Shown: piece after piece, positions 3,001 to 6,000 of the stretch
Numbering within the stretch: the stretch's first letter is position 1
Layout of the letters: each line of letters starts with the position of its first letter
From: a virus
Taxonomy: Duplodnaviria > Heunggongvirae > Uroviricota > Caudoviricetes
Direction: 5' to 3' (one strand)
Virus record (IMG/VR): IMGVR_UViG_2529293076_000033
Coordinates: 1 to 7,800 of that record
Length of the DNA stretch: 7,800 nucleotides
Program-made: the position numbers

Positions 3001-6000
3001 CATCAACGAAGAAGAAGACAAGAACGGCACAATTGATATCCCGAATGAACACGGAACAACAAATCGCGCCGTAGTATATAACGGGAAGCATGGGTTTATG
3101 ACGATATATCCCAGTCCCATTCGTTTTGCCTTACAACAGTATATTGAATGGAATTTAATTCAAAAATACGGCGAGGCAGAAGGAATGGGTAGAGCGCTGT
3201 TTCTTTATCAGAAAATGCTCATTACATGCCCAGATAAAGGTTTCATTGTTTCAGACATGGGGCGAGAAGGGCTTGAACTCCTTCTGGATGAAATTATTAA
3301 CGAAATGAATACTCATAGCATGCAATCAGAAACCTCTATTAACTAAAAGGGACTACATGACCGTTATCGAATATATCCAGGAAAATCCAGATTGCAGTAG
3401 AGAAGATATATCCCTCGCACTTGGAAGAAGCGGAGTTTCTATCAGTAATGAATTATCACGGTTACTGTGGAATGGGTTAATTGTACGAACTGGTGAAAAA
3501 AACAAAATGATTCTGTATCGCGTAAACAATCTGCCGTTTGGATACAACAATCCCCTGAGCGTTATGTTCAACCAGTTACTTAAACAGGTAAGAAAGTCTG
3601 ATGGCGACTGACTCACAACTAACCATAGATACGGCTCTTAATGTCGGTCTGGCGCTCCTTGGTTATTTCTACATCATGTTCTGCAGCGGACGATGGCTGT
3701 CACTGTTGTTCATGAAAAAATGGAATAAACGCCGTAAGCAGGATCAACGCCAGAAGGCAATGGATGCATTTTTCGAAGCCTTCGGGATTGACGGCATGGA
3801 ACCAGGGGATCCAGCTCGCGCAATTAGCAGAGGGGGCGTAGTAATCCTTGTATATCGGAGTGAAGAGAAAAATGAGCGAGATCAACTATCAGGCACTGCG
3901 TGAGGCGGCAGTAGCAATTGAAACAGTAGCAACGCCTCAAAAATTGCTGGCATTTCGTATGAAAGTCACACCGTCGGTGGTACTGGCGCTGCTGGATGAA
4001 CGAGATGCATTAAACGAACGCATAGCCGAACTGGAGGCTAATTTAGCGGAGCTGGCCGAAGACCAACAGAAAGCGATTGAGTCAATTAAGCAGGCTGATG
4101 CGGCTGTTAAGTTGGCACACGAGAAGTTTTCGGTGCTGGCGGCAGAGAATGCGGAGCTTAAACAGTCGGAGAAGGAATTTAATAACTTCTGTCGTCAGGA
4201 GTACTACGGTTGGGAGGACAACTTCACGGAAACCCCAGCCACCGACGCTTTCCTGGCTGAAATTCGTGCGGCGGCTCGCAACGAGGGTATTAACTATACC
4301 GCAAGCCGTCTTGCTGCTGCTTTCAATCACGGATTTATCAATAAGTCTTTGCGTGAAGTTTTCGACGTTACACGCATGATTTTATCAGCGAAAGAAGAGT
4401 TGGCTAATGAAGCGCATCCGATTGATGGCCTGTCTGGTGAATATGCGGAGAAATCCCTTGAAGAATGGGCGGAACAGATTCGCAAAGGAGGAAACCAGTG
4501 AGCAAGATTGACTATCAAGAACTTCGTGAAGCAGCAGTAGCAATTGAAACAGTAGCAACGCCTCAAAAATTGCTGGCATTTCGTATGAAAGTCACACCTC
4601 AGGTTGTGCTGGCTCTACTGGATGAACGGGAAAGAAACCAGCAATACATCAAACGCCGCGACCAGGAGAACGAGGATATTGCGCTTACGGTAGGGAAGCT
4701 GCGCGTTGAGCTTGAAGCAGAAAAACAGCGGGCAAAAGTTCTATTTATGGAAAATGCTCGGCTTAAGTCAGGCATAGCCGGTCTGATACACCTCGGTCAA
4801 TATGCAGATATTGAGGTCATGAGAATTGCTGGAGATGCCCAGCTTTCTACCCCATGCACTGACAGCATCATAAAAAGCATTGCAACAGGCATTCGCATCA
4901 AAGGAGAGTGAGATGAACGGACAAATCTCAATTGTTCTACCGGGAGCATGTGACGATCGCGAGATACGAATGATTATTCGTCTGGCGATGGGGAAAACAA
5001 TAACTGCTCTCATTACTCCAGAAAATCTCGCATTAGCATTAACCGGAAAGTCAGACCTGCCAGTAGAGCTAAAGCTGCGAAATGTTGAGATTAAGGTGAA
5101 ATAGCTATGACCACTATTACCGACAAAGAGCTAATTAGAGAAATTAAAGAACATATCAGCAGTCTGGGGGGGGGCGGACAATATTGAGCGCCGTGCTTAT
5201 GAAATTGCGTTGACTGCATTGACCGCTGAACCATTCGCCACTATCGACACCGCGGGAATTGAGCTCGTTAAATATGGTTGTAACACGTTTATTTGTCCCG
5301 ACAATTCGATGGATCCGGGAAATGTACCGCTATATATCGGCCTGCCACGAATTGAGCCAGCAAGCCAGACTGCCAAGCTGTCATTCCAGGAATGGTTGTC
5401 AGAACAAAAAGAAAAAATAGACGTTGATTGCGGATGTGTAAGCATCGAAACGCTTACGCACTGGATGAAATCAGCTTATGAGGCTGGCAACTCTCCGGTA
5501 ACTCCGGATGGTTGGATAAGCTGTAGTGAGCGAATGCCAGAAATGGGAGAGCGACAATGCTATGTGTTAGCAGCTGACTTTAAAAACAACTACCCACCAA
5601 ACATCCCCAACACTCAGGTCGGCGTATATGGCGACTGGTTTAATGATGGCAATCCCACTTGGGATGACGGTGATGGCGAAGACCTGTATCTCAAAGAGGT
5701 AACCCACTGGATGCCTCTACCAGAACCGCCGCAGGAGGTGAAATGATGAATTGGCCTGAAGCATTCACCGCAGTTGGAGTTGCAATAGCGGTGGCATTTA
5801 TTCTGTATTCGCTTTTCCGCTGGGGATAAAGGAATGTTCGCGCTGATTCAACGTGGTCAGATATACAGAGCCGGATACCCTGTGGTGATTATTCGCAGTA
5901 CTCAGCACTCAGTGTTCTTTCGACGCATGGACGGGTGCTCCGGACGGGTACGCATTGGTGAGTTCAACAACCTGTTCGAACATATTGACCAACAGGAGTA

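What the first reader, a model, noticed from the sequence alone, without database searches (positions are those of the whole stretch)
5743..5829. 28-aa hydrophobic peptide with a near-ideal RBS overlapping the upstream stop
MMNWPEAFTAVGVAIAVAFILYSLFRWG is a single predicted transmembrane helix with aromatic/basic caps, preceded by GGAGG at optimal spacing, and its ATG overlaps the DUF551 stop. Small membrane peptides of this size in prophages can act as toxins, membrane-depolarising exclusion factors or modulators of host membrane proteins. It is below the usual ORF-calling cutoff and would be missed by standard annotation.
Basis: seen in the sequence. Interest (0 to 1): 0.4.

Follow-up and report, generated by a model that had tools for sequence, protein, structure and literature searches.

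The report
Conserved unannotated prophage membrane microprotein gene
The 28-codon reading frame is a real, evolutionarily conserved gene for a tiny hydrophobic membrane peptide that sits in the early accessory region of Shiga-toxin and other lambda-like E. coli phages and is skipped by routine annotation; what the peptide does is still unknown.

Summary
The ORF is at the stated coordinates in an Stx-converting lambdoid prophage, between a DUF551 gene and DUF4222-xis-int. It belongs to a fixed-length (27 aa) family, M-[TSN]-W-P-[ED]-A-F..G...A......YS.CRW[GR]. The family occurs in at least 1555 of 5426 complete E. coli genomes (up to 7 copies), many Stx phages, a few virulent coliphages and about 180 phage-plasmid-like plasmids.

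In two samples anchored on neighbouring sequence, not on the ORF, it is intact in 118/119 and 73/75 loci. Substitutions are mainly synonymous or hydropathy-conserving (omega about 0.28-0.49). No other frame is consistently open, and no RNA structure is conserved. Every context keeps a strong Shine-Dalgarno sequence (mostly AGGAGGTG) and an ATGA start/stop overlap, behind at least five unrelated upstream gene tails.

The conserved start is ATG 5746. ATG 5743 is specific to this subtype. No Pfam, NCBIfam, PHROG, PADLOC or Rfam match exists, and no paper was found. GenBank has it only as a sporadic "hypothetical protein".

Best reading: a translationally coupled, single-pass inner-membrane microprotein made early in lytic growth. 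I infer that it binds a membrane partner. A toxin or exclusion role is not excluded. It is a solid new member of a known kind, of moderate interest.

The parts
5733..5740 (+). Shine-Dalgarno sequence AGGAGGTG (GGAGG at 5734-5738) inside the last codons of the DUF551 gene. It lies 5 nt (7 nt from GGAGG) upstream of the conserved ATG 5746.
   Evidence: Read. The same 8-nt SD at the same spacing is kept in most of 36 unique upstream contexts, including loci where the upstream gene ends 38 nt earlier.
5743..5829 (+). The ORF as reported (28 aa, MMNWPEAF...RWG). Its first ATG overlaps the DUF551 stop as ATGA.
   Evidence: The first ATG is specific to this subtype and is GTG in some alleles.
5746..5829 (+). 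The conserved 27-codon small gene (MNWPEAFTAVGVAIAVAFILYSLFRWG plus TAA). It encodes a predicted single-pass membrane microprotein.
   Evidence: 45 nucleotide alleles encode 20 peptide variants, all 27 aa. Omega is 0.28-0.49. Replacements conserve hydropathy, p about 1e-4. Intact in 118/119 and 73/75 unbiased loci.
5210..5746 (+). Upstream DUF551-domain gene. Its TGA (5744-5746) overlaps both candidate starts of the small gene.
   Evidence: Pfam PF04448, E=5e-22. Annotated as hypothetical or DUF551 in relatives.
5822..5826 (+). GGGGA within the last sense codons of the small gene, 7 nt upstream of the DUF4222 ATG. It is a likely SD for the downstream gene.
   Evidence: Read directly. The 4-nt gap between the small-gene stop and the DUF4222 start is kept in 182 loci.
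5834..6070 (+). Downstream DUF4222 gene, starting 4 nt after the small gene's stop.
   Evidence: Pfam PF13973, E=2e-10. Annotated in relatives.

Best explanation
Window 5746-5829 (optionally from 5743) is a real protein-coding gene for a 27-residue, single-pass inner-membrane microprotein.

Shown:
- The frame, its length, its start context and its peptide sequence are maintained by purifying selection across lambdoid (including Stx) prophages, phage-plasmid-like plasmids and a few virulent coliphages.
- It always carries a strong SD and a start that overlaps the stop of whatever gene precedes it.

Inferred:
- It has no promoter of its own and is transcribed with the early-left (pL-type) accessory operon. 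In other phages it sits in the nin region.
- It is translated by termination-reinitiation and/or direct SD-driven initiation. The peptide would therefore appear early after induction or infection and not in the repressed lysogen.
- The peptide inserts as one TM helix (about A6-C24). Orientation is weakly predicted as N-out/C-in.
- It acts as a small intramembrane binder of a larger host or phage membrane protein, through its conserved caps (W3-P4-E/D5 and C24-R25-W26) and conserved small residues (G11, A15, S22; A6, A17). This would resemble E. coli regulators such as AcrZ, MgtS or KdpF rather than a pore-former.

My confidence that it is a real, selected, translated small membrane protein gene is about 0.85-0.9. 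My confidence in the partner-binding mechanism specifically is about 0.3.
For: Existence and signals. All 36 unique upstream contexts have ATGA, and most have AGGAGGTG with a 5-nt spacer.

Widespread homologues with the frame kept:
- tblastn against phages gave 99 records, 48-100% aa identity.
- IMG/VR gave 488 or more relatives.
- 1555 of 5426 complete E. coli genomes, 2838 places.
- 180 plasmids.

Unbiased integrity:
- 118/119 loci anchored on the DUF4222 start.
- 73 intact against 2 decayed, anchored on the DUF551 3' end.

Selection:
- Variable sites by codon position are 16, 12 and 22 of 26.
- pN/pS is 0.39.
- MST counts are 81 synonymous to 66 non-synonymous, omega about 0.28, p=2e-14.
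- In the anchored set alone omega is 0.49, p=0.003.
- Non-synonymous changes conserve hydropathy: mean |dKD| 1.96 against 2.88 expected, p about 1e-4.
- Length is invariant at 27 aa, and M1, W3, G11, R25 and W26 are invariant across 23 variants.

Independence from neighbours:
- The same gene follows DUF551 tails, the '...GLISVEDILR' family, 933W p77, an Av-05 gene and a plasmid gene.
- It is followed by DUF4222, by mok/hok, by convergent genes, or directly by a terminator hairpin.

Operon position: no promoter-like site in 5000-6600, and all neighbours are on the same strand.

TM character: the KD 19-residue window maximum is 2.28.
Against: - There is no direct evidence of translation or membrane insertion. 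The peptide strings are absent from the text-held supplements of an EHEC Sakai Ribo-seq study and of an Enterobacteriaceae microproteome survey.
- Selection is weaker than on the neighbouring DUF4222 gene (omega 0.49 against 0.19).
- The antisense codon-aligned frame gives the same syn/non-syn ratio. The strand assignment therefore rests on start, stop and SD conservation.
- Decayed copies exist: a TGG to TAG nonsense change at W3 in POCJ13 and L270, a 1-nt deletion in 689R5/L010, a 1-nt insertion in L205, and a truncation in L304.
- Conservation within the helix is not confined to one face (permutation p=0.49), so the partner-binding interface is not demonstrated.
- Flank charges nearly cancel, so topology is uncertain.
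- No homology to any characterised small protein.
Confidence: 0.6

Rival explanations
1. The peptide is real but acts directly on the membrane. It could be a host-killing or growth-arresting toxin, a depolarising abortive or superinfection-exclusion factor, or a lysis-timing factor. In this reading it does not bind a specific partner.
For: It is very hydrophobic, 27 aa, in the size range of ShoB, DinQ, TisB and Ibs toxins (my knowledge). It is expressed only from early lytic operons, where toxicity to the host does no harm to the phage. It recurs next to mok/hok-sok loci. Phage early-region small proteins such as lambda Kil do arrest the host (PMC11323111).
Against: No antisense RNA, promoter-like site or Rfam hit of the type I toxin kind was found. 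There is no Hok/Gef or other toxin HMM hit. The TM segment has no polar or charged stripe that would line a pore. A very strong SD with tight coupling differs from the translation-repressed layout of known type I toxins (my knowledge). 97-99% of copies are intact, including in a prophage with a frameshifted integrase.
Confidence: 0.2
2. The ORF matters only as a ribosome relay. Its translation passes ribosomes from the upstream gene to DUF4222 by termination-reinitiation, and the peptide itself has no function.
For: Both ends are tightly coupled in the window: an ATGA overlap upstream, and a stop 4 nt before the DUF4222 ATG with GGGGA in the last codons acting as an SD. This spacing holds in 182 loci. 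Omega is higher than for DUF4222.
Against: The same ORF occurs with no coupled downstream gene. In 933W and E24377A mok/hok lies about 150 nt or more away. In ArgO145 and 613R10 the next genes are convergent. In L220 a terminator hairpin follows directly. A pure relay would not need an invariant 27-codon length, invariant W3/G11/R25/W26, or hydropathy-conserving replacements.
Confidence: 0.1
3. It is not a gene. The conserved DNA is a mosaic-joint or recombination linker, an RNA element, or the antisense of another ORF, and the open frame is incidental.
For: The DUF551 3' end plus SD is indeed a reused junction. About 44% of 134 occurrences are followed by other genes at the same spot. Reverse frames are often stop-free within the 84 nt, and the codon-aligned antisense frame shows the same syn/non-syn ratio.
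Against: Substitutions peak at third codon positions, and omega is below 1 only in the sense frame and its codon-aligned antisense frame. Antisense frames have no consistent start or stop across contexts and are closed in the window's own subtype. The RNA fold is weaker than shuffles (z=+1.38), and the consensus structure is only -2.9 kcal/mol with almost no covariation. There is no Rfam hit.
Confidence: 0.04

Closest known systems
E. coli small single-pass membrane regulators (AcrZ, MgtS, MgrB, KdpF, CydX)
   Same: Under 50 aa, one hydrophobic helix with short capped ends, and conserved small residues in the helix. These act by binding a larger membrane protein (my knowledge). The best weak HMM similarity is to KdpF (E=0.024).
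   Different: No sequence homology: KdpF scores 14.7 bits against a 26.85 cutoff. The gene is phage-borne, not chromosomal. It lies in an early phage operon, not next to a transporter or sensor gene. No partner is known.
Type I toxins (Hok/Gef, TisB, ShoB, DinQ, IbsC)
   Same: Small hydrophobic peptides, often on prophages. The gene sits physically next to mok/hok-sok in 933W and other prophages.
   Different: No Pfam or NCBIfam match. No antisense RNA or promoter. Strong SD and translational coupling, instead of repressed translation. No polar pore-lining residues.
Accessory ORFs of the lambda/Stx-phage exo-xis (ea) region (orf60a, orf61, orf63, orf73, ea22, ea8.5) and small pL-operon peptides (Kil, CIII)
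   Same: Same genomic neighbourhood and expression class: early, non-essential, conserved genes that modulate host physiology and the lysis-lysogeny decision (PMC3824215, PMC8614690, PMC10834534). The upstream DUF551 domain is described there as a portable C-terminal domain of Ea22 variants.
   Different: Those proteins are soluble. None of the exo-xis papers I consulted mentions a membrane peptide. There is no sequence similarity.
Early-expressed phage superinfection-exclusion membrane proteins (T4 Imm and Sp, P22 SieA, HK97 gp15)
   Same: Phage-encoded inner-membrane proteins that act on incoming phage DNA or the envelope (my knowledge).
   Different: Those are larger, usually with two or more TM segments or extra domains. 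No homology, and no exclusion phenotype has been tested here.

Membership tests
Hok/Gef type I toxin family | Match to the Hok/Gef protein HMM (about 50 aa with conserved Cys pattern) | tested here: not met
   A Pfam scan of three variants at E up to 10 returned only sub-threshold DUF883_C, B12D and PTR2 hits. NCBIfam returned none of this family. The peptide is 27 aa.
Hok/Gef type I toxin family | Cis-encoded antisense RNA (Sok-like) with its own promoter, and a structured mRNA that represses translation | tested here: not met
   No relevant Rfam hit in the window at E up to 1. No promoter-like site on either strand in 5000-6600. The fold is weaker than shuffles, z=+1.38. The SD is strong and exposed.
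KdpF (TIGR02115) | Score above the curated NCBIfam cutoff | tested here: not met
   14.7 bits against a cutoff of 26.85, for one variant only.
KdpF (TIGR02115) | Encoded at the head of a kdpFABC operon | tested here: not met
   The neighbours are DUF551, DUF4222, xis and int.
Any curated phage protein family (PHROGs) or defence family (PADLOC) | Significant HMM match | tested here: not met
   The best PHROG E-values are 0.019-0.085, to families of unknown function. PADLOC gave no hits.
Bacterial/phage small membrane proteins (generic kind, 50 aa or fewer, single TM) | ORF of 50 codons or fewer with one hydrophobic segment long enough to span the membrane | tested here: met
   27 aa. The A6-C24 stretch is hydrophobic, and the KD 19-residue window maximum is 2.11-2.28.
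Bacterial/phage small membrane proteins (generic kind, 50 aa or fewer, single TM) | Evidence of selection on the encoded peptide | tested here: met
   Omega 0.28-0.49 with p=2e-14 and 0.003. Replacements conserve hydropathy, p about 1e-4. Length is fixed.
Bacterial/phage small membrane proteins (generic kind, 50 aa or fewer, single TM) | Demonstrated translation and membrane localisation | not testable with these tools
   No Ribo-seq or proteomics data are accessible. The peptide strings were not found in the supplements held for PMC5597208 and PMC11188072.

The most novel reading that the evidence does not exclude
The peptide founds an uncharacterised, very widespread family of phage microproteins, present in about 29% of complete E. 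coli genomes and in most Stx-phage lineages sampled. It would bind a specific host inner-membrane machine early after induction or infection. Candidate targets are the FtsH/HflKC lysis-lysogeny protease, a divisome component, a DNA-entry channel, or a membrane-anchored anti-phage effector. By doing so it would measurably shift Stx-prophage induction, lysogenisation or superinfection immunity. If so, it would be a new small-protein regulator of Stx-phage development hidden in a region studied for decades.
Probability: 0.25. Interest if true: 0.6.

Novelty: new member of a known kind. Interest (0 to 1): 0.4.

Why it matters
Stx-converting and other lambdoid prophages drive EHEC virulence. Their exo-xis/ea accessory region is known to tune induction and lysogeny, yet it is only partly understood. 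This gene is in thousands of genomes and carries one of the strongest translation signals in the region. It is under purifying selection and is invisible in RefSeq annotation, so knockout, transcriptome and proteome studies have not considered it. It is a ready-made candidate for small-protein work, being 27 aa with clear invariant residues and several natural subtypes. It also shows how the 90-nt gene-calling floor hides conserved phage genes.

Tried and rejected
- The search for homologous proteins refuses queries under 40 aa. The search of protein representatives, structure prediction and the look-up of encoding contigs need at least 30 aa, or only accept window or returned proteins. I therefore had no deep profile search, structure or complex model.
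- The apparent link to 121-aa 'DUF551' proteins in the exact-sequence cluster look-up raised a fusion (Rosetta-stone) idea. The sequences showed plain DUF551 proteins ending ...PEPPQEVNQ, clustered with the peptide through partial contig-edge calls. There is no fusion.
- I rejected a frameshift or readthrough fusion of DUF551 to a TM anchor. The upstream genes are unrelated, there is no slippery site, and in L011-type loci a stop lies 38 nt upstream.
- I rejected an antisense ORF and a conserved RNA structure.
- A test for conservation on a single helix face was not significant (p=0.49).
- K-12 was checked for a curated homologue. In CPS-53, yfdS (DUF551) is followed directly by yfdT with no copy.
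- Literature searches were made by peptide string, in two small-ORF catalogues' supplements, and in exo-xis papers. Nothing on this peptide turned up.
- The GTDB species-representative scan found only E. coli and Shigella, plus two tiny contigs labelled Segatella and Xanthomonas that I regard as contamination. The back-translated patterns were strict, so distant relatives may have been missed.
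Full report
**What is in the window.**

The region 5200-6500 is 100% identical to nine Stx1a/Stx2a-converting lambdoid phages (LC567819 and relatives) and mosaically related to BP-4795, YYZ-2008, VT1-Sakai and others. All genes run on the + strand:
- a cI-like S24/HTH repressor (768-1424)
- a second HTH protein
- DUF4752
- two Ea22-like genes
- DUF551 (5210-5746)
- the small ORF
- DUF4222 (5834-6070)
- a 44-aa ORF (6074-6208)
- a DUF1233 excisionase (6227-6481)
- integrase

This is the early-left accessory (exo-xis/ea) arm of a lambdoid prophage.

**The observation.**

The ORF 5743-5829 exists and encodes MMNWPEAFTAVGVAIAVAFILYSLFRWG.
- GGAGG is at 5734-5738, within AGGAGGTG at 5733-5740.
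- The DUF551 stop TGA is at 5744-5746.
- The first ATG (5743) forms ATGA with that stop but lies only 4 nt from GGAGG.
- The second ATG (5746) is 7 nt from GGAGG and is the start shared by all relatives. In some alleles of this subtype the first codon is GTG.

I therefore take 5746-5829 (27 aa) as the conserved gene, with 5743 as an optional extra Met. The stop TAA (5827-5829) is 4 nt before the DUF4222 ATG. GGGGA in the last codons sits 7 nt upstream of that ATG. The Kyte-Doolittle 19-residue maximum is 2.28, consistent with one TM helix.

**Is it annotated?**

None of the GenBank or RefSeq phage records I opened annotate it. These were LC567819, BP-4795, YYZ-2008, 933W, ArgO145, 613R10, Av-05, WGPS2, PhiR12_1 and PhiR49_2. 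Each leaves the ORF-sized stretch after the upstream gene (84-87 nt) unannotated. The sampled PGAP-annotated E. coli genomes do not annotate it either.

An exact-sequence look-up shows sporadic calls in GenBank:
- the 28-aa form as 'hypothetical protein' ASL58468.1
- the 27-aa form as ETI78407.1
- a second subtype as AOM45384.1, 'bacteriophage protein'

So it is not strictly absent from databases, but it has no family, name or function. At 84-87 nt it is below Prodigal's 90-nt floor (my knowledge).

**Conservation.**

- tblastn found copies at 48-100% identity in about 90 coliphage records, apart from a few chance hits.
- An IMG/VR scan found at least 488.
- A blastn of the 84-nt ORF hit 1555 of 5426 complete E. 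coli genomes at 2838 places, up to 7 per genome, 110 of them on plasmids.
- tblastn hit 180 plasmids, mostly 90-105 kb and non-mobilizable. These are Escherichia 154, Salmonella 25 and Klebsiella 1. I read them as phage-plasmids, which is an inference.
- Among GTDB species representatives only E. coli and Shigella carry it.

I collected 45 distinct nucleotide alleles encoding 20 peptide variants, and three more variants from other loci. All are exactly 27 aa. M1, W3, G11, R25 and W26 are invariant. P4, A6, A15, A17, S22 and C24 are nearly invariant. The family consensus is MTWPEAFTTVGIAMAVALVVYSICRWG. The window's subtype differs most, with F in place of C24.

**Unbiased integrity tests.**

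Peptide-based searches only find intact copies, so I anchored on neighbouring DNA instead.
- Of 119 IMG/VR loci found through the DUF4222 start codon region, 118 have the intact 27/28-codon ORF ending 4 nt upstream. One has a 1-nt insertion in a G run.
- Of 134 occurrences of the DUF551 3' end (CCNCCGCAGGAGGTGAA), 73 are followed by an intact copy and 2 by decayed copies (a nonsense at W3, and a truncation). About 59 are followed by other genes that start at the same coupled position.
- Further decayed copies are POCJ13 (TGG to TAG at codon 3) and 689R5/L010 (1-nt deletion). In 689R5 the shifted frame was annotated as a 36-aa protein.

**Selection.**

- Variable sites per codon position are 16, 12 and 22 of 26, and pairwise pN/pS is 0.39.
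- On a minimum spanning tree of alleles there are 81 synonymous and 66 non-synonymous changes for 19.8 and 58.2 sites. This gives omega of about 0.28, binomial p=2e-14.
- In the anchored set alone the counts are 28 and 41, omega 0.49, p=0.003. DUF4222 next door has omega 0.19.
- Non-synonymous changes conserve hydropathy: mean |dKD| is 1.96 against 2.88 expected, p about 1e-4.

Both shifted forward frames contain stops in every allele. The codon-aligned antisense frame shows the same ratio, as expected, and is mostly stop-free. However, it has no consistent start or stop across contexts and is closed in the window's subtype. The region folds less well than shuffles (z=+1.38). The alignment has essentially no consensus structure (-2.9 kcal/mol), and there is no Rfam hit. 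The conserved entity is therefore the sense-strand peptide.

**Translation signals and modularity.**

All 36 unique upstream contexts read ATGA at the conserved start. Most carry AGGAGGTG with a 5-nt spacer, and the rest carry GGAGG at 10 nt or weaker variants.

The upstream genes differ:
- DUF551 tails (...PEPPQEVNQ* or ...QEVK*)
- a '...GLISVEDILR*' family
- 933W p77 ('...NIEQKVNQ*')
- an Av-05 gene
- a plasmid gene with a TAATG overlap

In L011-type loci another gene stops 38 nt upstream, yet the DUF551 3' remnant with the SD is retained. This shows the SD is kept for the small gene.

Downstream contexts also differ:
- DUF4222 at +4 nt (182 loci)
- mok/hok-sok about 150 nt or more away (933W, E24377A)
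- convergent genes (ArgO145, 613R10)
- a terminator hairpin directly after the stop (L220)

No promoter-like site lies in 5000-6600.

**Mechanism.**

Shown: a selected, fixed-length hydrophobic peptide gene with strong, coupled translation signals, embedded in early operons.

Inferred:
- It is expressed with the pL-type (or nin-region) early transcript upon induction or infection.
- It inserts as a single helix of about residues 6-24.
- Topology is weakly N-out/C-in. The flank charges nearly cancel, so this is tentative.
- It acts through intramembrane binding to a larger protein.

For the last point I rely on the fully apolar helix, the conserved small residues (G11, A15, S22; A6, A17) and the conserved interfacial caps. 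These make a partner-binding role more plausible to me than pore formation. This is not demonstrated, and conservation is not confined to one helical face (p=0.49). A membrane-active toxin or exclusion role remains a live alternative.

A pure ribosome-relay role is unlikely, because the gene persists without any coupled downstream gene and keeps its peptide features.

**Comparison with known families.**

- No Pfam, NCBIfam, PHROG or PADLOC family matches. The best are KdpF at 14.7 bits against a cutoff of 26.85, and PHROGs at E of 0.02 or worse.
- It is not a Hok/Gef-type type I toxin by HMM, by antisense RNA or by layout.
- It resembles in kind the E. coli small membrane regulators (AcrZ, MgtS, KdpF, CydX; my knowledge).
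- It shares its neighbourhood with the exo-xis accessory genes studied in lambda and Stx phages. The papers I consulted describe no membrane peptide there (PMC3824215, PMC8614690, PMC10834534).
- Peptide-string searches of the paper library and of two small-ORF catalogues' supplements found nothing.
- K-12's CPS-53 has yfdS (DUF551) followed directly by yfdT, without this gene.

**Verdict.**

It is a new, uncharacterised member of the known class of phage and bacterial small membrane proteins. Its function is unknown, and partner-binding modulation is my preferred but weakly supported mechanism (about 0.3). Interest is moderate. It is widespread in pathogen prophages, strongly signalled and overlooked, but thousands of such conserved microprotein families are now being predicted (PMC11188072).

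Noticed in passing
window 6515-7800 (around 6690): The integrase gene is frameshifted. A single G is missing at about 6690 relative to the intact intR of LC567819.1 (GGGGAGTTT becomes GGGGATTT). This splits it into ORFs 6515-6730 and 6667-7800+. The cause is either a locked-in (cryptic) prophage or a sequencing error.
   Followed up: partly
window 5716-5746; IMG/VR loci L222-L311: The 3' end of DUF551 genes (CCNCCGCAGGAGGTGAA plus an overlapping stop/start) is a reused mosaic junction. Of 134 occurrences, 73 are followed by the intact small gene and about 59 by other genes, such as products starting 'MNNLMTTKQVAD', that begin at the same coupled position.
   Followed up: partly
L011/L012 2462-2584 (E. 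coli and Shigella chromosomes) and 14 similar loci: An unrelated upstream gene stops 38 nt before the conserved ATG. Its own ATGA overlap opens an in-frame 40-aa extended version (MKIEYQDAAGGES-MSWPD...). Two isoforms may therefore be made there.
   Followed up: no
L097 1499-1609 (vB_EcoS-689R5, URC08898.1); L010: A 1-nt deletion right after ATGAC destroys the small gene. The annotated 36-aa 'hypothetical protein' is the shifted frame of the decayed copy.
   Followed up: yes
L004 (933W) 1198-1650; L218 (E24377A); L220: In nin-region contexts the small gene lies just upstream of mok/hok-sok type I toxin loci. In L220 a terminator hairpin directly follows its stop.
   Followed up: partly
window 6074-6208: A 44-aa ORF starts 3 nt after the DUF4222 stop and lies upstream of xis. 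It is annotated as hypothetical in BP-4795 (ORF3) and YYZ-2008 (gp03) and conserved in position. It has no Pfam or PADLOC match and its function is unknown.
   Followed up: no
L007 (Escherichia phage Av-05, Vequintavirinae) 1198-1281: A copy of the small gene (70% aa identity) sits in a virulent myovirus genome. The next gene's N-terminus resembles the N-terminal part of the window's DUF551 protein (…IDVDCGCVSIETF…). An ea-like cassette has moved into a lytic phage.
   Followed up: no
protein cluster look-up: The 27-aa peptide shares a 90%-identity cluster with 121-aa DUF551 proteins, through partial contig-edge gene calls mislabelled 'DUF551 domain-containing protein, partial'. This is a clustering and naming artefact, not a fusion.
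   Followed up: yes
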